Positions 5,745 to 15,417 of a DNA stretch of 23,357 nt are shown piece after piece (position 1 is the stretch's first letter; every line of letters begins with the position of its first letter). The position numbers and the translations under genes were made by a program. Below the pieces are notes generated by a model, which had not been told where the DNA came from, made no database searches, and saw nothing but the letters and a program-made list of their open reading frames with translations. The stretch comes from a virus (lineage: Duplodnaviria > Heunggongvirae > Uroviricota > Caudoviricetes), in IMG/VR virus record IMGVR_UViG_2545824717_000010, one strand, 5' to 3'.

Positions 5745-8570
5745 ATGACGACAGAGTACATCAGGGACTGGCAACAACCGCGCCACGCAGTAGGACGTGA
5801 AGGAACGGAGATCCCCGCACCTGAATCCGCACTTTCCTCCTGGCTGGATGCCTACCGGGCAGAGAACGAGCGCCGCCAGGAAATGGCTGATGCGGCGTTC
5901 TCCGCCACGCCGCTGGGCAACCTGATTAATAAAAGCCTGGACGCACAGGAAAAACAGGACAAAACAATCACACTGGCAGGAGACGCCAGAAAACAGGCAC
6001 GCGGCGCGGTAGATGAGGCCATGGCCTCACTGCGCCTGCTGCCGTCCTATCTGCGCGATCCGCTTATTCGCCACCTCTCCTTCCTGCGCAAAAAACAGGA
6101 AGCCGATCGTCAGAAAGGAAAAAACGCCAGGCAGGCAGAACGCTATGCGCGTGGGACCCTGCGCAAAATATTCGAACGTCTGGAGCGCACCGATCACCGC
6201 TGGCTGACATCGGGTTATCGCTCCCTTGCCGGACGTGACCGCCTGGACGATTTGCTTTCCCTGCCGCAACTCAACAAACACCAGATACAGACGCTGGCCA
6301 CCATGACGGCGGCGATGTTCAGCAGCACCTTCGAAAAACTCTGCGATGGTTTTGGCGCGACTGATGGCGAGCTGACCATGGATGTAACGCTGAAGGTGTA
6401 TCAGATGCTGGCCCGCATGGCATTACATCTGCACACCATGCCGCCACATTATGACGCACTGACAACAGACAAAGACCGGAGGAACGAACCAGACACGGAG
6501 CTGCTGCCGGGCGCAATTCTTCGCCTGACCTGTGCGGAATGGTGGAAGCGCAAACTGTGGCTTTTACGTTGCGAGTGGCGGGAAGAACAACTCCGCGCCG
6601 CCTGTCTGGTTTCCAGAAAAACATCGCCCTATCTGAGCCAGGACGCGTTAAGCGAGTTTCGCGCACAGCGCGAGAAAACACGCGATTTCCTGAAAAGTTT
6701 CATGCTGGAAAACGAAGACGGGTTCACGATTGATCTCGAGACAGTGTATTACGCGGGAGTAAGTAACCCGGTTCACCGTAAGGCAGAAATGATGGCCACC
6801 ATGAAGGGGCTGGAACTTCTGGCCGAAGCCCGTGGCGACAAAGCGGTGTTTCTGACTGTCACCTGCCCGTCAAAATACCACGCCACAACAGAGAACGGTC
6901 ATCCGAATCCCAAATGGAACGGGGCCACCATGCGCGACTCCAGCGATTATCTGGTTAACACGTTTTTTGCGGCGGTCCGCAAAAAACTGAACCGCGACGG
7001 CCTGCGCTGGTATGGCATCCGCACGGTGGAGCCTCACCATGACGGCACCGTGCACTGGCATATGATGGTCTTTGCTCATCCGGAAGAAATCGACAGCATC
7101 GTGGCCATCACCCGCGATATTGCCATTCAGGAAGACCGCCACGAGCTGGGCAATGATATTACTCCGCGCTTTAAGGTGGAGTATGTCGACGGCTCAAAAG
7201 GCACACCAACCAGCTATATCGCGACCTACATCGGAAAAAACCTGGACAGCCGCGCCGTCGATGGCATCGACCCGAAAACGGGCAAGCCACGCGTTGACCA
7301 CGAAACCGGAAAATCAATGGCCGAGAGCGTGGAGCGCGCCATCGGCTGGGCGCGCCTTCACCGGGTCCGTCAGTTCCAGTTCTTTGGCATCCCCTCCCGT
7401 CAGGTGTGGCGTGAACTGCGCCGCCTTGCCAGCCAGATGGCACGCAATCCGGAAGGCCCGCAACGGCTGAAAGATGATGCAATGGATGCGGTACTCGCTG
7501 CCGCCGATGCCGGGTGTTTTGCCTCCTACATTGAAAAACAGGGTGGCGTGCTTGTTCCACGCAAGGACTACCTGATTCGCACCGCCTACGACCTCGCAGA
7601 TGAGCTGAACGATTACGGCGAACAGAGCGTACAGATTTACGGGATCTGGTCACCACTCATCGGGGAATCCTCCCGTGTGTGCACGCATCCGGATAACTGG
7701 AAGTTGGTAAGACGTAAACCAGAACCAGAAGACAACGCCCACGAAAATGGTTTTGACCTTCAGGGCGGCCCTGCCGCCCCTTGGACTCGTGGCAATAACT
7801 GTCCCCGTGTACAGGAAACAGGCAACAGCGGGACAGAACAGTCGAAAGAACGGCCAGCACCGTGGCCGCAGCTTCCTGACGGCGTTGAAGTGAACGAATG
7901 GATGCGCTCACTGAAACGGCACGAACGCCGGGCGCTGATGCGTTCGCTTCGTGACAAACAGGCAAAAAACAGCAGTGATGAAATGCAGAGCTGGACACAG
8001 AGCCGCAAACAGCAGCGGCCTTTGCCTGATAACCACGAATTACTCGCTAAAGAATGGCGGGAATCTGCCGAATCTCTCGGCCTGCATATCGGTGAACAGC
8101 AGATGCAGCACCTGTTACGGGGAGGCAGCCTGTACGTTGACGGCAGCATCATTGCACCGCAGGGATTTGAAATTGTACGCAAACCGGATACCCGCCCGGC
8201 CAGCCGAATCACGCAGCTCTGGCAGCGCCTGAGCCGTAATCACGGCGTAAGCAGCACAGAGATCCGTCATAACCCGGTCGCCAGCTATCTGGCACAGCTG
8301 GGGGCATCAGACCCCGAAGCCGCCGCACGTCTGGCATCCACACTTCAGCAGGACCAGAACACCATGAAAACCCCCGTTACCGTGCTTTCTGACATGCTGC
8401 GCGCCATCCGTGACGCAGAGCACGCACAAAGAATCAATGAAACCACTGAACGCGCCCGCCGCAAGGCTACTTTGCTCCAAAAGAGAGGCAAACAGCACTT
8501 TAGTAATCAAAATGATGATGAGAAAAAACAATTACAAAGTTGGATATGCCTTTTCCATCATGAGGGATGA
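5745..8570 (+). CDS. A: Replication initiation endonuclease (rolling-circle, HUH class), P2 gpA homolog with extended C-terminus
   Basis: 941 aa; HUH metal motif VHWHMMVF (about 7050..7080); tyrosine motif YIATYIGKN (about 7210..7236); position before the cargo locus as in P2. Longer than P2 A as recalled (about 760 aa). Confidence 0.85.
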   Translation: MTTEYIRDWQQPRHAVGREGTEIPAPESALSSWLDAYRAENERRQEMADAAFSATPLGNLINKSLDAQEKQDKTITLAGDARKQARGAVDEAMASLRLLPSYLRDPLIRHLSFLRKKQEADRQKGKNARQAERYARGTLRKIFERLERTDHRWLTSGYRSLAGRDRLDDLLSLPQLNKHQIQTLATMTAAMFSSTFEKLCDGFGATDGELTMDVTLKVYQMLARMALHLHTMPPHYDALTTDKDRRNEPDTELLPGAILRLTCAEWWKRKLWLLRCEWREEQLRAACLVSRKTSPYLSQDALSEFRAQREKTRDFLKSFMLENEDGFTIDLETVYYAGVSNPVHRKAEMMATMKGLELLAEARGDKAVFLTVTCPSKYHATTENGHPNPKWNGATMRDSSDYLVNTFFAAVRKKLNRDGLRWYGIRTVEPHHDGTVHWHMMVFAHPEEIDSIVAITRDIAIQEDRHELGNDITPRFKVEYVDGSKGTPTSYIATYIGKNLDSRAVDGIDPKTGKPRVDHETGKSMAESVERAIGWARLHRVRQFQFFGIPSRQVWRELRRLASQMARNPEGPQRLKDDAMDAVLAAADAGCFASYIEKQGGVLVPRKDYLIRTAYDLADELNDYGEQSVQIYGIWSPLIGESSRVCTHPDNWKLVRRKPEPEDNAHENGFDLQGGPAAPWTRGNNCPRVQETGNSGTEQSKERPAPWPQLPDGVEVNEWMRSLKRHERRALMRSLRDKQAKNSSDEMQSWTQSRKQQRPLPDNHELLAKEWRESAESLGLHIGEQQMQHLLRGGSLYVDGSIIAPQGFEIVRKPDTRPASRITQLWQRLSRNHGVSSTEIRHNPVASYLAQLGASDPEAAARLASTLQQDQNTMKTPVTVLSDMLRAIRDAEHAQRINETTERARRKATLLQKRGKQHFSNQNDDEKKQLQSWICLFHHEG

Positions 8571-8592
8571 GATGTGAATCGCTAACCGAATA

Positions 8593-8622
8593 TTGTGTTG
8601 AATAGAATGCAATTGATATAAT
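8593..8622 (+). promoter_or_regulatory. Candidate sigma70 promoter for the cargo operon (-35 TTGTGT, 18-bp spacer, -10 TATAAT)
   Basis: TTGTGT at 8593..8598 and perfect TATAAT at 8617..8622, about 135 bp upstream of the MTase start. Confidence 0.45.
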
Positions 8623-8650
8623 TCCCCTTAATTCATTGAAAACTGGATTT

Positions 8651-8668
8651 TTTGCATAACTATGCAAA
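8651..8668. promoter_or_regulatory. Perfect 8-bp inverted repeat TTTGCATA-AC-TATGCAAA (operator-like) between promoter and MTase start
   Basis: Read directly; reverse complement of TTTGCATA is TATGCAAA; 2-bp centre. Confidence 0.4.
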
Positions 8669-8755
8669 TATCTATGGACGGCGACGATGTTTTTTATCGG
8701 GAAAACTCAAGTGCCATGTTAAGATTATGTTTATTTTTTACTGAGAAAATCGTGG

Positions 8756-9601
8756 ATGACAAAGCCTTCTCATTTTAGAACCCCTCTTCGTTATCCGGGA
8801 GGTAAGGCAAAATTCTTGCCACATATTGAACAAATACTCCGCAACAATGATCTCATTGGTGGATGTTATGCTGAACCTTATGCAGGTGGAGCCGGTGTAG
8901 CATTAGGTTTGCTCCTTAACGGTCTTGTTGAAAATATCTTCATAAATGATATTGATCCTGCCCTTTATTCTTTTTGGTTTGCAGTGGTTAATCATAACGA
9001 TCTGTTATGTGAAATGATTGATGAAGTTCCTGTGACTATTGAAAATTGGCATACTCAAAAGGAGATACTCCTAAACAATGATAAATATAGTATGCTTGAA
9101 GTCGCATTATCTACTTTCTTTTTAAATAGAACAAACCGTTCAGGAATACTTAAGGCTGGCGTTATTGGAGGGAAAGAACAAAAAGGACCATGGAAGTTAG
9201 ATGCAAGATTCAACAAAAAAGAGTTAATTAAAAGGATTGAACTAATTGGTGCATATAAGGAGAAAATTTACGTATCGAATTTTGATGCTGTAGATTTTCT
9301 GCTACACCAAAAAGCATTGCTACCCAAAAATAGTCTAATATATCTTGATCCACCTTATTATGTTAAAGGAGCAGAGTTATATAGAAATTTTTATAAACAT
9401 GATGATCATGTAAAAATCGCTAATACACTACGGGAAATTCAACTACCTTGGGTTGTGTCTTATGACAATGTGCCTGAAATAAAAAGCATATATCATGAAT
9501 TCAATATGACTGATTATACGCTTAATTATACTGCACAAGATAAGAAAAAAGGTCTAGAAATTATCATTTATAATCATGGTATAAAAATCCCTGACATTTA
9601 A
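8756..9601 (+). CDS. N6-adenine DNA methyltransferase, D12/Dam family (alpha class)
   Basis: 281 aa; N-terminal RYPGGK motif; SAM-binding motif I EPYAGGAGV (about 8870..8896); catalytic motif IV DPPY (9347..9358); markedly AT-rich versus flanks. Target sequence cannot be inferred. Confidence 0.85.
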   Translation: MTKPSHFRTPLRYPGGKAKFLPHIEQILRNNDLIGGCYAEPYAGGAGVALGLLLNGLVENIFINDIDPALYSFWFAVVNHNDLLCEMIDEVPVTIENWHTQKEILLNNDKYSMLEVALSTFFLNRTNRSGILKAGVIGGKEQKGPWKLDARFNKKELIKRIELIGAYKEKIYVSNFDAVDFLLHQKALLPKNSLIYLDPPYYVKGAELYRNFYKHDDHVKIANTLREIQLPWVVSYDNVPEIKSIYHEFNMTDYTLNYTAQDKKKGLEIIIYNHGIKIPDI

Positions 9602-9618
9602 ATTTAAGGATGATATAG

Positions 9619-11316
9619 ATGATTAAAGAAATTAGTTTTAAAAAATTTAAGAAACTGATAGATATTGACTTCTCATTCAATGAAGACATCAATATAATAT
9701 CAGGAACCAATGGGACATGTAAGACAACATTGCTTCATTTAATTAGCAATGGTTTCCAAATGCCACCATCTCGATCACAAAATTATTCAAATAGTAATTG
9801 TGTTAGAGTTATAAAATCTATAAACAAAATAGCCAACCCCAAAATGGAAGCAATTGTTAGGGAATCAAAAAATTACACCGATCCGGCAGAGGGAACAAAA
9901 GGTGTGTTATTTTCTATTAACTATTTGGATCATAGCACACTAGACTTCAGAAAGCACAACTCAAAAAATCCAGACGAAGCGCAACGGTATGCTATCAAAC
10001 CAGTATACCCACGCGGAAAAGAAAAACAATCACTTCCAGCTAAACCAGTTTTATATCTTGGATTATCGCGACTATTCCCAATTGGTGAAACTAAAGACGA
10101 CGCCCTTACAAAAATTCCGTTAAACCTACCAGAAGAGTATGTTGGTTATATATCGAAAATATATAATGAACTTTTGGGAATTAATATTATAAATATAGAA
10201 TCAAACAATATCGGTGATTTTAAAGCTGGCCCATTATTTGATACCGATAACCCAGCAATTGATTCTAATACCATATCATCCGGGGAAGACAATATATTCA
10301 TTATAATCAAGGCATTAGTTAGCCTTAGGTATTATTTTGAATCACTTATTCAATCCACTGATCAAAAAGAAAGCATTCTGTTAATAGATGAATTTGATGC
10401 CACTTTACATCCTTCTTTACAGATAAGATTATTAGATAAAATTTATCAATACGCAAAAGATTATAAGATTCAAGTATTTTTCACAACGCACAGTCTGACA
10501 TTGCTAGAGTATGCTTTTCATAAAAAATACCATGTTGTCTATCTAATTAACAATATTACAAAGGCTCTGCTTTTGGATAATCCTGATATATTAAAAATAA
10601 CAATGTATCTGAAAACACAAACAAAGGATGAGATATACACAAGGAACAAGATACCAGTTTTCACGGAAGATGAAGAAGCTCGCTTTTTATTTAATGAAAT
10701 ACTTGGTTATTGGATAAGCAAATATCCAAATTTTGCTATAGTTAGTAATTCATTTCACTTAATTGATTGTTTCATTGGTGCAGACAATTTAAAAACTATT
10801 TTTAATGATTCTCATCTTAAGGAAACCTCGTTAAAATCAATTTGTATTCTTGATGGAGATCACAGCCCTGAGGATCAGAGAGGAATTATATCACTGCCGG
10901 GTGAAAAAGCTCCAGAACAATTGATATTTGAGCATTGTGAGCACCTTTATAATACCGACGACTCTTCCTTCTGGGAAAATCAGGATATAATTAACAATGG
11001 TTTTTCGAAAGAGTTATACTTACTCAAGATACGTCCTCAATTACAATCAATTGAAACTGAAATTCAGAAAAGAAAAGACAACCATGAGTCTACATCCGGT
11101 TTAAGAAGAAGATTAAATAAGAAAATATTCAATCAGCATATTGAATTCTTTAGAATGATTACAAGAAACTGGTTAGACAAACCAGAAAATCAGAAATCTC
11201 TCCAGTATTTTTACAATGGATTACGATCCTTATTCTACCGGGTTACACCAACAAACGGCATTGACAGAAAAATTTGGGATTTTGACTATAACAAAATCAT
11301 TAAAGAGGATAAATAA
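9619..11316 (+). CDS. ABC-type ATPase fused to a TOPRIM-like nuclease domain (OLD/PARIS-like architecture)
   Basis: 565 aa; Walker A GTNGTCKTT (about 9703..9729); Walker B LLIDEFD (about 10381..10400); TTHS motif; C-terminal region with conserved Glu (VFTEDEEA, about 10654..10680) and DxD (ILDGDH, about 10846..10860) consistent with TOPRIM; starts 17 bp after the MTase stop; very AT-rich. Confidence 0.75.
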   Translation: MIKEISFKKFKKLIDIDFSFNEDINIISGTNGTCKTTLLHLISNGFQMPPSRSQNYSNSNCVRVIKSINKIANPKMEAIVRESKNYTDPAEGTKGVLFSINYLDHSTLDFRKHNSKNPDEAQRYAIKPVYPRGKEKQSLPAKPVLYLGLSRLFPIGETKDDALTKIPLNLPEEYVGYISKIYNELLGINIINIESNNIGDFKAGPLFDTDNPAIDSNTISSGEDNIFIIIKALVSLRYYFESLIQSTDQKESILLIDEFDATLHPSLQIRLLDKIYQYAKDYKIQVFFTTHSLTLLEYAFHKKYHVVYLINNITKALLLDNPDILKITMYLKTQTKDEIYTRNKIPVFTEDEEARFLFNEILGYWISKYPNFAIVSNSFHLIDCFIGADNLKTIFNDSHLKETSLKSICILDGDHSPEDQRGIISLPGEKAPEQLIFEHCEHLYNTDDSSFWENQDIINNGFSKELYLLKIRPQLQSIETEIQKRKDNHESTSGLRRRLNKKIFNQHIEFFRMITRNWLDKPENQKSLQYFYNGLRSLFYRVTPTNGIDRKIWDFDYNKIIKEDK

Positions 11317-11553
11317 TGTATTCTAATAGGATATAAACATCAAAGCTATATTTTTTACACATATCAAGAGTAAAAAATAATTTAACTTTTACATAACGAC
11401 CTCTTTTACAAATAAGTAGAAAAGGTCGTTATAACTCTCATCTCCATAGCATGTAATTTTCTTTGCATATTTTCACATAACAGTCAGGGATGTATTTATA
11501 AGCAACGTCGTATACATAGGCTCAATTTTTCTATAAATAAGCACTCCGTTCGG

Positions 11554-11583
11554 TTTGCACAATAGTGCACAAATTTGCACAAT
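11554..11583. repeat. Three tandem 10-bp direct repeats (TTTGCACAAT / AGTGCACAAA / TTTGCACAAT)
   Basis: Read directly; units 1 and 3 identical; one-helical-turn periodicity; located at the AT-rich to GC-rich transition on the right side of the cargo island. Confidence 0.6.
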
Positions 11584-11952
11584 TTTTTTGAACGACTTTT
11601 GCCCTTCCGGCCCGCATGGCGGCTGGATCCGTCAAGGATCCGTGCGTGCACAAAAAAACGCGCTTTTTCTGCGCGCAGGTGACGGGGGAACAGCCCGCGT
11701 TTCAGGGGGTAAATAGCATTCCCTGAACGATGTCGCAGAGACACAACAGAATGGCCATATTTCTCACGCTGAGCATGAAAAAGGCGTGAGGGCTTTTGAT
11801 TTGATGGGGTGAAAGGTAAGGCCGTCAAAATCGCACTGAGGCAGCGAGAACATACAGTCAACGCGGTGGAATTGCGTAAGAGTCTGACCGTCGATGGTGG
11901 CGATAAACTGGAAGGCGTCGTGAAATTATCTGATTGATACAGGAGCTGGAGA

Positions 11953-11981
11953 GCCGGGGCATAAATTTTTTATGCCCCGGC
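11953..11981. repeat. Perfect 13-bp inverted repeat GCCGGGGCATAAA-TTT-TTTATGCCCCGGC
   Basis: Read directly; no U-tract on either side, so not a canonical intrinsic terminator; about 100 bp upstream of the 12081 gene. Confidence 0.6.
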
Positions 11982-12080
11982 GAAGCAGCAGACAAGCGAA
12001 GCGCGTCAGCGATACGGCACCTTGCCGACCATACTTCATAAGTGCAAAATACGAGCAAAGAAATCAATGGAGGCTGTCTT

Positions 12081-12605
12081 ATGGTCATTAATTACAAGCA
12101 GTTAAGAGAAAAACGGGAGCAGGTAAAGGAGAGCTTTCGCCGCAATGAAGATCTGACCCCGCTTGTACGCCTTGCCCAGGGCATTGTTGATGCTTATGAA
12201 ATCTCGCTGGAGCTGCCATCACAGACCTGGACAGATAGCGACGGTAATCGCCAGCATTACGTTTCATGCGGACTGGAAGCAGCCGAAGGATTTCGCAGAA
12301 TGCCTTTATCCCAGATCCCTGCCGCTACCCCCAAAGCACGGGGCAGCAATGATGAGCGAAAACTGACTTTTAGTATTGAAACGGTGGTTGACGACACACC
12401 TGGCGAAGTCGCGTTCGTACACACTCCTGTTTCGATCGCAATGTATAACGATGAAATACAGGTTCGCGTTAATAATAATATCGTGCCACTTAAAGAAGGT
12501 AATTCACCCTACACCACCGTTTGTGAAGCCATTCAATATTACGTTCTCTCTGAAATTGATAATCTCAAGCCTGACGGCACCCAGAAAATGGTTCAACTCT
12601 GGTAA
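12081..12605 (+). CDS. Hypothetical protein (unassigned cargo gene between packaging region and portal gene)
   Basis: 174 aa from ATG at 12081 with RBS GGAGG 7 nt upstream (the track ORF starts at 12042 in the same frame); followed by an intrinsic terminator; no family recognised. Confidence 0.55.
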   Translation: MVINYKQLREKREQVKESFRRNEDLTPLVRLAQGIVDAYEISLELPSQTWTDSDGNRQHYVSCGLEAAEGFRRMPLSQIPAATPKARGSNDERKLTFSIETVVDDTPGEVAFVHTPVSIAMYNDEIQVRVNNNIVPLKEGNSPYTTVCEAIQYYVLSEIDNLKPDGTQKMVQLW

Positions 12606-12611
12606 AAAGGA

Positions 12612-12636
12612 CAGCCCCATCACGGGGCTGTTTTTT
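12612..12636. terminator. Bidirectional intrinsic terminator between convergent genes
   Basis: 7-bp GC stem CAGCCCC/GGGGCTG with 5-nt loop followed by TTTTTT on plus strand and by TTTTT on the minus strand (complement of AAAAA at 12604..12608); overlaps the Q stop codon. Confidence 0.7.
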
Positions 12637-13666
12637 CATCAAGAAGAGCATAAGAGTTAAAACGGATCACCTCTTCGCCAAGCCAGTCATTGATGTGCTT
12701 CATAGCCTCCATGACGGGCATCAGCTCGTTAATTGCGTAAACCCGCGCTGCCTTCTCCACATCGCCAAACGCACTTTTTTCGCCCGGCATCGCCCCCATC
12801 AGTTGCGGCGGAACGCGGTGCGCAGCCAGCACATCATCACGGGATGCCGCCTTAACATTCATGAATTCATCTTTTGCGGTGATCTGCTGGAACGGCAAAA
12901 TTTGCACCCCCTCTTTGCCCCCGTTGGGCGCATGAATGAGCACGTTTTTAAACGCACCACCACCACGTGCCCCCTGTAGCGTTTCTTTCAGGGAGTCCAT
13001 GCTTTCGCGGTTTACCTGCGCTGCACCGATGTAGATGATGCACCCGGCGTGGGATCCGTTGTCGTAGTACAGTTTTCTGAACATGTCCGCCGAATGAGAA
13101 AGGCTGGCCGAGAGTAATGCGCCAAGATATTCCGGCATGCCGTAGATTTCCTGGTTAATATCCGGATTCATCAGGTGGCACACTTTGCCAGGACGAAACT
13201 GAAACGCGTCCTTGCCATCCTGCACATACCACCATGATTCAAGATCGCTTCCGCGTCGCATGTATTTCGCCAGGGCGTGCCGTAATTTAAGCGGTTCGCC
13301 GAGCATATTGCTTCGAAGCTCAAGGAATGCGTTACCGAACACAAACCAGTCCAGCGCCAGCGCCGAGAAATCCTGCCGGGAAAGCAGCGGGTGCGGGATG
13401 TAGCAACCGAGTAATACATTGCGCTTAAAGTAAAGCGCAGACTGATGCCAGGACGTTTGCCGGGCAGCTCTTGCCAGACCGTACCAGTCCACCGGGGTTT
13501 CATACCACCGCCCGTTATCAGCACAGTACATATTGTCCAGCAGGTCATGCCCGGTCAGGCGATAAGGACCATCAAATGTGAATGCACTGAGCGATGATTC
13601 TTTCCTGAGCGCATCAGCGAGATCAATGCGTGAACTCATGCGCACTTTTTTATTTTTTCTGCTCAT
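12620..13666 (-). CDS. Q: Portal protein, P2 gpQ homolog
   Basis: 348 aa, similar length to P2 Q; position adjacent to the terminase gene; recalled sequence similarity. Confidence 0.85.
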   Translation of the reverse strand: MSRKNKKVRMSSRIDLADALRKESSLSAFTFDGPYRLTGHDLLDNMYCADNGRWYETPVDWYGLARAARQTSWHQSALYFKRNVLLGCYIPHPLLSRQDFSALALDWFVFGNAFLELRSNMLGEPLKLRHALAKYMRRGSDLESWWYVQDGKDAFQFRPGKVCHLMNPDINQEIYGMPEYLGALLSASLSHSADMFRKLYYDNGSHAGCIIYIGAAQVNRESMDSLKETLQGARGGGAFKNVLIHAPNGGKEGVQILPFQQITAKDEFMNVKAASRDDVLAAHRVPPQLMGAMPGEKSAFGDVEKAARVYAINELMPVMEAMKHINDWLGEEVIRFNSYALLDEKTAP

Positions 13667-15417
13667 CAGAACTCCATAACTGTGAAACGCTCGTTTTCTC
13701 CTTCGCCGCCAATTGGTTCGTTAATGACAGCAAGCATGGTTGCCCACGCAAGGTCGCCGTGGCTGATCCCCCTCGCGCGGTCCGTTTCGTAAGTGATAAA
13801 GCCGCCCGGTGTTTTCACCTTACGCACGGCGTTAAAGGCTGCGACCAGCTCGCGTTCGGCGCGATCGTATTCCCACCGCCCGGCACGCATTATTTGCAGC
13901 ATTTTCAGTACCAGCGACCGTTTTGATGACAGCGTGAAGGTGTACGGAATAGCAGCAGGGAAAAACCGTTTCACTATCTGATAAACAGCCTCCCCGTTCC
14001 CGCCCGTCACATCAATGCCGATGTGTTCCACGTTGTAGCGACACGTGAACTCTTCAATGACTCTGGCCTGTTCTTCAAACTCCAGCCCCTGAACGCGTCG
14101 CGTCTCCACCGTTCGAAAACGGCCACCAGGAACAGACGGAGGAACCACCACGGACACAGCGCCGCTGTCGCCGTTGCCACTGCTGCCGTTTGCGTCATAC
14201 CCAATCCATACCGGACGATTCCCCATCGGGCGGGGAGCAAAAGGTTTCCAGTCTTTCCAGTCGTCGTATCCGTCAACGCCGCAGCCAATCAGGATATTCA
14301 GGTTAAATGCCGATTCCCCTTCGCGGACAAACTCACACATGTAGAGATTGAGGAACTCGTCTTCGGTGTTTTCATCGCGGATTTCGTCAATATCGGTGTG
14401 TTTCCAGCCGTGATTAACCACATCTTCCAGCGTGACAATCTGCCGCCATGTCCGGTCAGGGCAGATAAGTCCGTTATGCAGCGTTTTCCAGTCCACAGAA
14501 AAACGCTGGCGTTTATGCGAGGCCTTTTTCTCGTTCCAGCGGTCGCCGTTCCAGTAGGCGTATGCCTCGTGCGTTTCGGTGGATGGCGTGGAGAAGTAGG
14601 TGCGCCGCAGTCCGCTGAGGGTTGCCATAGCGCCAGCCACCTTGCGCAGTTCAGCAAAGCGACTGACCCAGAAAAATTCATCAAAATAAAAATTGCCCGT
14701 ATAGGACTGTGCCGACGCAGCAGAAGTGCCGAGAAAATGCAGCTCTGCGCCGTTGGAGAGGATGATTTTATCGCCCCCTTTCAGCTCCACATCAACTTCA
14801 GCCGCGGCCTTCTGAATAATGCTTTTAAACTGGAACGCCTGACGACGCGACGCAGACAAAAAAATCTGGTTACGCTGGTAAGGTTGCGCCACATCGTCAC
14901 GCAGCGCCATCAGCAGCGCTTCCTGTGCAAAATACCAGGTCGCCCCAATCTGTCGGGATTTCAGGATCATCCTGTTACGTATCCCGGCTTCCCTGCAAAG
15001 GGTCAGGGAGTCAAACCAGCCCCGCTGATGCCACTCCAGCCTGCTGATGATTTTTTCCCGCAGTGCGGCAATCTGTTCCGGCGTGAAATGATTTTTGAGT
15101 TTTTTCGCCCGGCCTTTCTTTCCTGCGGCCATCACATCCGGCTGGCCATCATGCAGCTTTTTAAGCTGCCGGGTCAGCAGGTCTATTTCCTTAAAGTCAC
15201 CGCCTGTTTTATTCTGTTTTTCAGTAAGCTGGATGAGGCGCGCATCAATGGACTGCGTGACACGCTGCACGGGTGGCGTTTCATCCCACTGGTCGCGTTT
15301 TTTCCACGCATAAATCGTGTTCGGGTTTATTCCCATCAGACGTGATATTTCTGCGGGCGGATAACCCTGCCAGTAAAGTTGCCGCGCACGCTGGCGCACA
15401 AAAGCGTCCTGAATCAT
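13666..15417 (-). CDS. P: Terminase large (ATPase) subunit, P2 gpP homolog
   Basis: 583 aa; N-terminal MIQDAFVRQRARQLYWQGYPPAEISRLMGI matches P2 P as recalled; divergent from the O operon. Confidence 0.9.
   Translation of the reverse strand: MIQDAFVRQRARQLYWQGYPPAEISRLMGINPNTIYAWKKRDQWDETPPVQRVTQSIDARLIQLTEKQNKTGGDFKEIDLLTRQLKKLHDGQPDVMAAGKKGRAKKLKNHFTPEQIAALREKIISRLEWHQRGWFDSLTLCREAGIRNRMILKSRQIGATWYFAQEALLMALRDDVAQPYQRNQIFLSASRRQAFQFKSIIQKAAAEVDVELKGGDKIILSNGAELHFLGTSAASAQSYTGNFYFDEFFWVSRFAELRKVAGAMATLSGLRRTYFSTPSTETHEAYAYWNGDRWNEKKASHKRQRFSVDWKTLHNGLICPDRTWRQIVTLEDVVNHGWKHTDIDEIRDENTEDEFLNLYMCEFVREGESAFNLNILIGCGVDGYDDWKDWKPFAPRPMGNRPVWIGYDANGSSGNGDSGAVSVVVPPSVPGGRFRTVETRRVQGLEFEEQARVIEEFTCRYNVEHIGIDVTGGNGEAVYQIVKRFFPAAIPYTFTLSSKRSLVLKMLQIMRAGRWEYDRAERELVAAFNAVRKVKTPGGFITYETDRARGISHGDLAWATMLAVINEPIGGEGENERFTVMEF

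What the first reader, a model, noticed from the sequence alone, without database searches (positions are those of the whole stretch)
8440..8760. Left junction of the cargo island lies inside the 3' end of gene A; A carries a long C-terminal extension
Seen: the A ORF is 941 aa, and its last roughly 30 codons (about 8470..8570, encoding ...KRGKQHFSNQNDDEKKQLQSWICLFHHEG) switch abruptly to AT-rich composition like the downstream cargo. This suggests the cargo insertion replaced the native 3' end of A. The C-terminal roughly 300 aa after the HUH/Tyr core is Gln/Arg-rich and unassigned. A promoter-like TTGTGT-18-TATAAT and a perfect palindrome TTTGCATAACTATGCAAA sit between A and the MTase, so the cargo probably has its own regulated promoter rather than relying on read-through from A.
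Basis: partly seen in the sequence, partly recalled or inferred. Interest (0 to 1): 0.5.

Follow-up and report, generated by a model that had tools for sequence, protein, structure and literature searches.

The report
Cargo swap overwrote phage A-gene tail
In this P88-type (P2-like) E. coli prophage, a swapped-in methylase/ATPase defence cassette replaced the last 33 codons of the replication gene A, an ordinary event at a known phage hotspot whose unusual feature is that the border lies inside an essential gene.

Summary
The window is a P88-like (Xuanwuvirus) prophage. Similarity to P88 and about 1,300 E. coli prophages stops at 8467, inside gene A, and resumes at 11556. GC falls from 0.59 to 0.35 at that point.

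About 97% of relatives carry a different, GC-normal tail (...RKADLLRGGLTSGNKKQTETGLTNPVNEQKTRSDI) followed by parM/parR, so the window's tail is derived. The unit 8468-11555 is 99.4-99.97% identical across backbones that differ by 2-6% on both sides. It therefore moves as one block through recombination in conserved flanks. This is the known gpA-gpQ hotspot of P2-like phages.

Two corrections:
- **The long C-terminus is unrelated to the cargo.** P88 A has 940 aa. P2 homology runs to residue 706, and the inferred ori (about 7775-7802) is untouched.
- **The better-supported promoter is a different one.** An extended -10 (TGTTAAGAT, 8717-8725) is conserved in cassette relatives from unrelated elements.

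Tolerance of the swap fits relaxed constraint on the native tail.

The parts
5745..8570 (+). Replication gene A (941 aa). Pfam Phage_GPA covers residues 179-503 and P2 gpA homology covers residues 77-706.
   Evidence: ORF and translation. Pfam E=8e-131. 95.6% nt identity to P88 A up to 8467. blastp to P2 gpA at 31% identity.
7775..7802 (+). Inferred replication-origin nick region (GCCCCTTGGACTCGTGGCAATAACTGT), about 680 nt upstream of the junction.
   Evidence: The P2 record annotates the ori nick at 29892. The P2 sequence GCGCCTC|GGAGTCCTGTCAATAACTGT aligns here at protein and DNA level. This rests on homology only.
8467..8468 (.). Left junction: last base shared with P88-like relatives, then first base of the swapped unit.
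   Evidence: In backbones that differ 5-6% in A, SNPs run up to 8440 and then none occur through 8755.
8468..8570 (+). Foreign AT-rich tail of A: residues T909-G941 plus the stop codon, GC 0.35.
   Evidence: No protein with this tail outside this lineage among 1.84 billion representatives.
8571..8715 (.). Lineage-private spacer of unknown origin between the A stop and the conserved cassette.
   Evidence: No match in phages or plasmids, and none in E. coli genomes other than the 14 carriers. Cassette homologues share nothing upstream of about 8716.
8593..8622 (+).
   Evidence: Read. TGATATAAT at 8614-8622. Not listed by the consensus scan because the -35 matches 3 of 6.
8651..8668 (.). Inverted repeat TTTGCATA-AC-TATGCAAA (8-bp arms, 2-bp centre).
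   Evidence: It is the only copy in the window even with 3 mismatches allowed. Shuffle controls.
8717..8725 (+). Proximal extended -10 (TGTTAAGAT), 31 nt before the methylase start codon. It marks the left edge of the conserved two-gene cassette.
   Evidence: TG-n-TA-nnn-T is invariant in 7 cassettes at 70-84% protein identity from unrelated contexts (alignment A2). Similarity to those cassettes starts at 8716-8731.
8756..9601 (+). D12-class N6-adenine DNA methyltransferase (281 aa).
   Evidence: Pfam PF02086, E=1.6e-20. PADLOC PD-Lambda-5_B, E=8e-122.
9619..11316 (+). ABC-type ATPase (AAA_15/AAA_21, 565 aa) with an unassigned C-terminal half.
   Evidence: It is always paired with the methylase in homologous cassettes.
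11556..11585 (.). Right border of the swapped unit: three TGCACAA units at 10-bp spacing, after which P88-like sequence resumes.
   Evidence: The same right border occurs in 35+ P88-like loci.

Best explanation
**What it is.** The window is a P88-like (Xuanwuvirus, Peduoviridae) prophage. Its accessory locus between replication gene A and the cos/portal region has been replaced by a 3.09-kb AT-rich unit (8468-11555).

**What was replaced.** In the usual form of this phage, A ends in a GC-normal 33-residue tail. The DNA of that tail overlaps the first of two 42-nt repeats upstream of a parM/parR partition module, and variable cargo begins only after parR. Here the replacement reached further left. 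It removed the native tail, the repeats, parM/parR and whatever followed.

**How A ends now.** The A reading frame runs into the incoming DNA and stops at the first in-frame stop codon, 33 codons later. This gives a chimeric but full-length A of 941 aa.

**What the unit contains.** It has 248 bp of unknown origin: the new tail, a promoter-like site and an inverted repeat. Then comes a compact two-gene cassette, a D12 adenine methylase plus an ABC-type ATPase. The same cassette circulates in plasmids, integrative islands and chromosomal defence islands, and it carries its own extended -10 promoter immediately upstream of the methylase gene.

**How it spreads.** Once formed, the unit spread among diverged P88-like backbones by homologous recombination. 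The arms are the conserved 3' part of A on the left and the TGCACAA-repeat/cos region on the right.

**Why it is tolerated.** The swap is tolerated because the last roughly 33 codons of A are under weak protein-level constraint, and because the ori and the catalytic core lie well upstream.

**Status of each step.**
- Shown here: the junction positions, the identity of the native tail, the block-wise near-identity of the unit, the relaxed constraint on the native tail, and conservation of the proximal -10.
- Inferred: that the chimeric A is functional, that the proximal promoter drives the cargo in the lysogen, that the cassette is a defence system, and that the first acquisition was an illegitimate join.
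For: **Junctions**
- They lie at 8467/8468 and 11555/11556 in every comparison.

**Native tail**
- It is present in 78 of 87 loci.
- 1,300 E. coli records carry it, against 14 with the window's tail and 21 with a third tail.
- It is also present, diverged in step with A, in a Salmonella locus. The replaced segment there has GC 0.51, against 0.32 in the window.

**Block transfer**
- The unit 8468-11555 is 99.4-99.97% identical across loci.
- In the same loci the adjacent 1.5 kb of A is 93.7-98.5% identical and the right flank 93.8-97.6%.
- SNPs run up to 8440 and then stop.

**Relaxed constraint on the native tail**
- Codon positions 1+2 vary at 31% of sites, against 11.5% upstream (Fisher p=1.4e-4).
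- Overall variability is 36% against 18%.
- Frameshifted and truncated tails occur among relatives.
- A third tail class is 25 aa shorter and is annotated as an intact gene in E. coli genomes.

**Length of the new tail**
- An open run of at least 34 codons into shuffled AT-rich DNA occurs 9% of the time, so the length needs no special explanation.

**Native arrangement**
- The native tail overlaps a 42-nt repeat upstream of parM/parR.
- The usual left border of variable DNA is just after parR.

**Cassette**
- It occurs in unrelated contexts with a conserved TGnTAnnnT directly upstream.
- The methylase matches PD-Lambda-5_B at E=8e-122.

**Origin and published context**
- The ori homologue lies about 680 nt upstream of the junction.
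- The A-to-portal locus is a published hotspot. About a quarter of P2-like phages carry a partition system there (PMC9122126; PMC13586616; PMC9519451).
Against: - No experiment shows that the chimeric A works or that these prophages are inducible.
- The 14 genomes and about 24 metagenome/viral contigs could include defective copies. Three contigs (L175, L129, L181) are clearly degraded.
- The source of 8468-8715 was not found, so an illegitimate first join is inferred rather than shown.
- A few codons beyond the junction still resemble the native sequence (RKATLL vs RKADLL). The third tail class keeps 15 of 30 nt. This hints at a diverged A allele rather than random DNA.
- The proximal -10 has no good -35, and TGNTANNNT as such is no more frequent in the window than chance. 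Its support comes from conservation across only seven sequences.
- The ATPase partner does not match the PD-Lambda-5_A model among the top hits, so the defence role is by analogy.
Confidence: 0.78

Rival explanations
1. The AT-rich tail is the natural 3' end of a diverged A allele from another, AT-richer P2-like phage. On this reading the cargo and that allele's 3' end entered together by recombination between two partly similar A genes, so nothing was truncated. One A terminus was exchanged for a homologous but divergent one.
For: - The frame is kept, and the first residues after the junction resemble the native ones (RKATLL vs RKADLL, with synonymous-type differences GCT/GCA, TTG/CTG, CTC/CTG).
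- The third tail class (L007 type) keeps 15 of 30 nt and the pattern A-R-K-K-x-x-L-L beyond its break.
- Both AT-rich classes share Asn (A at 8437) where all native-tail loci have Ser.
- Total length is 941 aa against 940 aa.
- The scaffold L174 has the tail followed by different DNA after 8584.
Against: - A full HMMER scan of 1.84 billion representative proteins with the last 100 aa found the tail only in fragments of this same lineage. It found no diverged A protein reaching into it.
- No DNA match to 8468-8720 exists in phages, in plasmids, or in E. coli genomes other than the 14 carriers.
- The resemblance covers only 4-6 codons.
- L174 is a 548-nt metagenome scaffold that also differs from the window at its other end. 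It may be an assembly chimera.
Confidence: 0.2
2. One reading: the distal TTGTGT-18-TATAAT promoter drives the cargo, and the inverted repeat at +22 to +39 is an operator through which a regulator controls it.
For: - The -10 is perfect and has a TG extension.
- An 8-bp-arm inverted repeat is uncommon in a 185-nt stretch, appearing in 1.8% of shuffles.
- It sits where a repressor would block elongation or open-complex formation.
- Both elements are unchanged in the one diverged copy (ZH177), which has 4 substitutions elsewhere in the spacer.
Against: - The -35 matches only 3 of 6 positions.
- Such -10 matches are frequent in AT-rich DNA: a second TGATATAAT lies inside the ATPase gene on the other strand.
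- The repeat is unremarkable against the whole AT-rich segment, appearing in 39% of shuffles.
- There is no second copy in the window.
- The cassette has no regulator gene: only two genes and no HTH domain.
- Neither element is present upstream of any homologous cassette.
- The unit is too uniform for conservation to say anything.
Confidence: 0.25
3. The cargo has no functional promoter of its own and is expressed only by read-through of the early (A) transcript during lytic growth. The promoter-like sites are chance features of AT-rich DNA.
For: - No terminator-like site lies between A and the methylase gene.
- Both cargo genes are co-oriented with A.
- Promoter-like hexamers are at chance frequency in the region.
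Against: - The TGnTAnnnT block is invariant at the same distance from the start codon in seven cassettes whose upstream neighbours are unrelated or divergently oriented. Read-through from a common upstream gene cannot explain this.
- A methylase expressed only after induction would leave the lysogen's DNA unmodified. That fits poorly with a methylase-linked defence.
- P2 old/tin at the same locus have their own mapped transcript starts.
Confidence: 0.12
4. The polarity is reversed: the AT-rich tail is ancestral, and the par-linked tail is the later insertion.
For: The partition module is itself accessory in P2-like phages generally, being present in about a quarter of them (PMC9122126).
Against: - The par-linked tail has backbone-like GC. 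It is present in E. coli, E. albertii, Citrobacter and Salmonella relatives and has diverged in step with A.
- The AT-rich unit is nearly identical across backbones that differ by up to 6%. It is found in only 14 of about 1,335 E. coli prophages.
Confidence: 0.03

Closest known systems
The gpA-gpQ (cos-proximal) accessory/defence hotspot of P2-like phages: the P2 'TO region' with tin and old (Rousset et al. 2022, PMC9122126; Vassallo et al. 2022, PMC9519451; PMC13586616)
   Same: - It occupies the same position, between replication gene A and the portal gene next to cos.
- The flanks are conserved and the content is highly variable.
- The cargo is AT-rich, defence-like and compact.
- The pattern of near-identical cargo in diverged backbones matches the rapid swapping described in PMC13586616.
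   Different: - Those studies define the locus by gene, as everything between A and Q. In the parts I searched they do not place a border inside A.
- Here the left border is 103 nt inside the A ORF, so the swap creates a chimeric A protein.
Phage P88 (NC_026014) and other Xuanwuvirus genomes: A (940 aa) followed by parM/parR
   Same: - The backbone is 95-98% identical on both sides of the variable segment.
- A has the same length and the same long C-terminal region.
- The right border is the same TGCACAA x3 array.
   Different: - P88 has the native tail, two 42-nt repeats, parM, parR and two small genes where the window has the AT-rich tail, spacer, methylase and ATPase.
- In P88-like phages variable DNA normally begins after parR.
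PD-lambda-5 anti-phage system (Vassallo et al. 2022), described there as a compacted prophage RM+Abi-like system
   Same: - The methylase is a full-length match to the PADLOC PD-Lambda-5_B model (E=8e-122).
- It is a two-gene prophage-borne arrangement with an NTPase-type partner.
   Different: - The partner ATPase's best PADLOC matches are generic (HEC-04, PtuA, AriA, GajA at about 1e-16). No strong PD-Lambda-5_A match appears in the top 25.
- Activity was not tested.
Morons of lambdoid phages: accessory genes inserted between core genes with their own promoter and terminator (concept recalled from the literature, not checked here)
   Same: It is an AT-rich insert with its own promoter-like element, presumably expressed from the prophage.
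   Different: - No terminator was detected on either side of the left junction.
- The insert is not cleanly intergenic, because it overwrites the end of a core gene.

Membership tests
P2-like gpA-gpQ accessory/defence hotspot | Lies between replication gene A and portal gene Q, next to cos | tested here: met
   A is at 5745-8570 (Pfam Phage_GPA). The portal and terminase genes are at 12620-15417 on the minus strand and align to the P88 portal and terminase.
P2-like gpA-gpQ accessory/defence hotspot | Content differs among otherwise collinear, closely related prophages while the flanks stay conserved | tested here: met
   At least four different contents lie between the same borders (window, P88, L083, L007). 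The distribution of borders over 86 loci is.
P2-like gpA-gpQ accessory/defence hotspot | Cargo confers anti-phage defence | not testable with these tools
   There are only family matches: PD-Lambda-5_B and AAA_15/AAA_21 ATPase.
Phage_GPA replication initiator (P2 gpA family), P88 lineage | GPA nickase domain, and collinear homology to P2 gpA including the ori-encoding stretch | tested here: met
   Pfam E=8e-131 over residues 179-503. blastp to P2 gpA covers residues 77-706. The nick-site homologue is at about 7775-7802.
Phage_GPA replication initiator (P2 gpA family), P88 lineage | Native P88-type C-terminal tail (...RKADLLRGGLTSGNKKQTETGLTNPVNEQKTRSDI) | tested here: not met
   It is replaced from residue 909 onward. 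The protein is a chimera of P88-type A with 33 foreign residues.
PD-lambda-5 defence system | Methyltransferase component (PD-Lambda-5_B) | tested here: met
   PADLOC PDLC04018, E=8.3e-122, residues 6-280 against profile positions 3-277 of 291.
PD-lambda-5 defence system | Partner component (PD-Lambda-5_A) | tested here: inconclusive
   It is not among the 25 best of 103 PADLOC matches for the 565-aa protein, whose best hit is HEC-04 at 1.3e-16. A weak match further down the list cannot be excluded.
Extended -10 sigma-70 promoter | TG one base upstream of a -10 hexamer with A at position 2 and T at position 6 | tested here: met
   Proximal TGTTAAGAT at 8717-8725 is conserved in 7 of 7 cassettes. 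Distal TGATATAAT is at 8614-8622.
Extended -10 sigma-70 promoter | A transcript starts 6-8 nt downstream | not testable with these tools
   No transcript data are available.
Controller-protein (C-box) regulated restriction-modification promoter | A small HTH controller gene in the cassette whose product binds a palindromic box upstream | tested here: not met
   The cassette has only two genes, neither with an HTH domain. Small ORFs in 8560-8760 are unremarkable. The inverted repeat is absent from all homologous cassettes.
Type II (ParMR) partition locus | parM and parR genes with upstream repeats | tested here: not met
   These are present in P88 (Pfam StbA_N 1.8e-82, Plasmid_stab_B 1.6e-24, 42-nt repeat x2). 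They are absent from the window, where that segment is replaced.

The most novel reading that the evidence does not exclude
The last roughly 33 codons of gpA in P88-like phages may not really belong to the replication protein. They could be a weakly constrained overlap zone shared with the neighbouring accessory module. In the native form this DNA doubles as the first repeat of a probable parC site. Every module exchange that crosses the zone would then give the essential initiator a new C-terminus. If the tails are not neutral, cargo swaps at this hotspot would also retune phage replication. A tail could, for example, alter the cis-acting behaviour or stability of A, or translation of A through the zone could affect binding at the par repeats or expression of the cargo.
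Probability: 0.12. Interest if true: 0.45.

Novelty: new member of a known kind. Interest (0 to 1): 0.27.

Why it matters
Its main value is as a worked example of how the well-known P2-like defence hotspot exchanges its content.
- **Recombination arms:** they are the 3' part of an essential gene and a short repeat array near cos.
- **Border position:** it can fall inside the essential gene because the gene's last 33 codons are poorly constrained.
- **Practical consequence:** gene-based extraction of hotspot cargo ("everything between A and Q") will miss the true unit borders and the chimeric A termini. It may also clone the wrong promoter with a system. For this cassette the conserved promoter lies within 40 nt of the start codon.
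- **Scope:** none of this changes what is known about the hotspot.

Tried and rejected
- **Tail-only protein search (46 aa):** the word-indexed search of the 5.8-billion collection returned no candidates. It is uninformative, because 90%-identity clusters are probably represented by native-tail proteins.
- **Full HMMER scan with the last 100 aa:** it gave only 9 hits. All were the P88-type A, fragments of it, or spurious long proteins. No diverged donor allele was found.
- **blastn of 8468-8720:** sensitive mode against phages and plasmids gave nothing. E. coli genomes gave only the 14 carriers.
- **Scan of 2.9 million viral contigs for TTTGCATANNTATGCAAA:** it found 81 contigs. Fourteen also carry the window's tail and the rest are mostly unrelated. 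By my own rough estimate this is near chance for 16 specified bases, so it gives no lead to a binding protein.
- **RNA structure:** folding 8629-8760 gave z = -0.26. Rfam at E<=1 gave no match in 8300-9000. An RNA element was therefore rejected.
- **Terminator scan of 8300-9000:** none found.
- **Proteins P0123 and L174:** the apparent 99-aa protein continuing past the A stop does not translate with the bacterial code. The 548-nt scaffold diverges from the window after 8584. It is either a second context for the tail or a chimera, and this is left unresolved.
- **Microhomology-mediated join at TGCT (8473-8476):** rejected, because 8468-8472 already differs from the native sequence.
- **Shared protein at both borders:** I considered whether the inverted repeat shares a binding protein with the TGCACAA repeats at the right border. 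TTTGCAYA occurs 6 times, 5 of them at the borders, but 9% of shuffles reach 6. This is too weak to claim.

Full report
**1. What the window is**

The ORF map shows an integrase, an early region, a 941-aa ORF at 5745-8570, two AT-rich ORFs, and then portal and terminase genes on the minus strand followed by head genes. Megablast of 7900-9000 hits only Xuanwuvirus (P88-like Peduoviridae) phages. The annotated P88 record shows the same gene order. The 941-aa ORF is the replication endonuclease A, with Pfam Phage_GPA at E=8e-131 over residues 179-503.

**2. The observation**

GC is 0.59 in the 100 nt before 8468 and 0.35 in 8468-8570. That matches the spacer (0.33), the methylase gene (0.34) and the ATPase gene (0.32) (profile).

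Every comparison places the break at the same base:
- Alignments to the 14 phage records end at 8464-8467.
- 1,333 E. coli chromosome records match up to 8467, and only 14 continue.
- Pairwise blastn to P88, Shae_phiSM, P88_4B11, E. albertii and Salmonella loci ends at 8467-8468 and resumes at 11556.

Base 8468 is the third position of codon 908. The first altered residue is therefore T909, and 33 residues are foreign.

- The -35 matches consensus at only 3 of 6 positions, so the scan tool skipped the site. The -10 is a perfect TGATATAAT.
- The "palindrome" has 8-bp arms around a 2-bp centre that is not symmetric.

**3. Which tail is native**

I collected 87 related loci (and the three annotated phage regions) and read the A frame through to its stop.
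- About 80 loci end ...RKADLLRGGLTSGNKKQTETGLTNPVNEQKTRSDI or a close variant.
- 5 loci have the window's tail.
- 1 locus (L007) has a third tail, ...RINETTKHARKKISLLHRTR.

Clustering the DNA downstream of the break gives 78 loci in one group, 6 (including the window) in a second, and two singletons.

In 5,426 complete E. coli genomes the counts are as follows.

| Tail class | E. coli records |
|---|---|
| Common tail plus downstream DNA | 1,300 |
| Window's unit | 14 |
| L007 type | 21 |

Together these account for essentially all P88-type A 3' ends.

The common tail has backbone-like GC (0.51 for the whole replaced segment). It is also present in a Salmonella relative, where both A and the tail have diverged to about 88%. 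It is therefore the native tail and the window's tail is derived.

**4. What was replaced**

In P88 the native tail is followed by parM (Pfam StbA_N, 1.8e-82) and a parR-type gene (Plasmid_stab_B, 1.6e-24).

A 42-nt direct repeat occurs twice, at L001 6602-6643 and 6675-6716. Each copy contains a roughly 19-bp palindrome. The A stop codon (6668) lies between the copies. The native end of A thus overlaps what looks like the partition site.

Across 86 loci, the run of homology that starts in A usually ends just after parR (L001 about 8013-8050). The right-hand homology begins at L001 8792 in most loci. The normal variable cargo therefore lies between parR and a TGCACAA x3 array. The window's replacement is an unusually large one that also removed the par module and the A tail.

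Rousset et al. note that about a quarter of P2-like phages carry a partition system at this locus (PMC9122126). They and others describe the A-to-portal interval as a defence hotspot (PMC9519451, PMC13586616).

**5. The unit moves as a block**

Exact-pattern scans for the tail found 15 viral and 9 metagenome contigs. In all that could be read, the tail is joined to the same cargo.

| Segment, compared with the window | Identity across these loci |
|---|---|
| Unit 8468-11555 | 99.4-99.97% |
| 1.5 kb of A just upstream | 93.7-98.5% |
| Right flank | 93.8-97.6% |

In the most diverged backbones SNPs occur up to 8415/8440. None occurs from there through 8755.

This is the signature of recent transfer of one unit, tail included, into different backbones by crossing-over in the conserved flanks. 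The crossover points differ between backbone groups, with last SNPs at 7741, 8297 or 8440.

**6. Why A tolerates it**

Among 48 distinct native-tail sequences, sites upstream of the junction vary mainly at third codon positions (23/25/66 variable sites at positions 1/2/3). In the tail the three positions vary almost equally (10/10/15), and overall variability doubles.
- First and second positions vary at 31% against 11.5% (Fisher p=1.4e-4).
- Several relatives have frameshifted or shortened tails.
- The L007-type tail is 25 residues shorter, yet the gene is annotated as intact.

An open run of at least 34 codons into shuffled AT-rich DNA occurs in 9% of trials. The new tail's length therefore needs no selective explanation.

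The P2 record marks the ori nick at 29892 inside A. The matching stretch in the window is at about 7775-7802, roughly 680 nt upstream of the junction. The inferred origin and the nickase core are therefore untouched. Whether the chimeric A actually works was not tested.

**7. The "long C-terminal extension"**

P88 A has 940 aa, so the length has nothing to do with the cargo.
- P2 gpA (761 aa) aligns to window residues 77-706.
- Other P2-like phages align to about residues 690-860.
- The last 100 aa have no relatives outside the P88 lineage among 1.84 billion representatives.
- Residues 701-907 are somewhat rich in Q (8%) and R (12%).
- No Pfam or NCBIfam family matches this part.

The region is a lineage trait of unknown function.

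**8. The cargo and its promoter**

The two genes encode a D12 adenine methylase and an ABC-type ATPase. The methylase matches PD-Lambda-5_B at 8e-122. The ATPase carries AAA_15/AAA_21 domains, and its C-terminal half is unassigned.

Methylase homologues at 70-84% identity always have the same ATPase partner downstream. They sit in unrelated settings:
- a relaxase-bearing element;
- integrase islands next to ssrA;
- next to a toxin-antitoxin pair;
- chromosomal loci in Pectobacterium and Klebsiella.

Their nucleotide similarity to the window begins at 8716-8731. An alignment of seven upstream regions shows an invariant TG-n-TA-nnn-T block followed by a T-run. Nothing is conserved further upstream. 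In the window this block is TGTTAAGAT at 8717-8725, 31 nt before the start codon. It is the best-supported promoter for the cargo and marks the left edge of the travelling cassette.

They are found only in this lineage.

The evidence on the repeat does not settle its role:
- It is unusual for a 185-nt stretch (1.8% of shuffles) but not for the whole AT-rich unit (39%).
- It has no second copy in the window.
- It has no partner regulator gene in the cassette.
- It gives no significant RNA fold and no Rfam match.

No terminator separates A from the cargo, so read-through during lytic growth is likely in addition to any cargo promoter.

**9. Origin of the first join**

The source of 8468-8715 was not found. 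A few codons beyond the junction still resemble the native ones, and the L007-type tail keeps 15 of 30 nt. A diverged A allele as donor therefore remains possible, at about 0.2 by my estimate.

The 548-nt scaffold L174 matches the window up to 8584 and then differs. It would support that view if it is not an assembly chimera.

**10. Verdict**

The points worth recording are:
- the border lies inside an essential gene;
- the native tail overlaps a probable partition site and is weakly constrained;

Interest is low to moderate.

Noticed in passing
window 11556-11585: Three TGCACAA units at 10-bp spacing (TGCACAATAG TGCACAAATT TGCACAATTT) form the right border of the variable segment in every P88-like locus compared. 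They look like a protein-binding array near cos, and their function is unknown. TTTGCAYA occurs 6 times in the window, 5 of them at the two borders of the variable segment, but 9% of shuffles reach 6.
   Followed up: partly
window 12010-12644: This is a second, smaller insertion relative to P88, Shae_phiSM and E. coli E110019, just upstream of the portal gene. It holds ORF 12042-12605 (187 aa, no Pfam match), followed by a hairpin and T-run.
   Followed up: partly
L001 (P88) 6602-6716: In the native arrangement a 42-nt direct repeat occurs twice upstream of parM, each copy with a roughly 19-bp palindrome (ACGGGAnTnAnGAATCCCG). The first copy lies inside the A coding sequence and the A stop codon falls between the copies. 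It is probably the partition site, overlapping an essential gene.
   Followed up: partly
L175 4742-8455; L129 3962-7597; L181 1842-5477: These are degraded prophages in which most of A (and in two cases much more) is deleted. The stretch equivalent to window about 8375-12009 is retained: the A 3' end, tail, methylase and ATPase. This suggests the cassette is kept after the phage decays.
   Followed up: partly
L174 1-548: This 548-nt metagenome scaffold matches the window at 99.4% from 8252 to 8584, 14 nt past the A stop, then continues with unrelated DNA that looks like the 3' end of another gene. It is either a second context for the AT-rich tail or an assembly chimera.
   Followed up: partly
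window 8521-8526 (A-run in the tail); L194 and L173: E. coli ZH177 has a +1 indel and viral contig L173 a -1 indel in the A6 run of the foreign tail, which would change the last roughly 15 residues of A again. These may be homopolymer sequencing errors.
   Followed up: no
L083 5001-5949: One P88-like locus keeps the native A tail and the par repeats. Its parM is cut after about 17 codons and replaced by a two-gene minus-strand pair that looks to me like a Doc/Fic-type toxin with its antitoxin (family not checked with any tool). This shows a further left breakpoint inside the par module.
   Followed up: no
L007 463-3086 (also 21 E. coli genomes, e.g. L193): The third tail class is linked to three minus-strand genes (269, 114 and 491 aa) with no Pfam match. 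This is an uncharacterised cargo at the same hotspot that converges on A.
   Followed up: no
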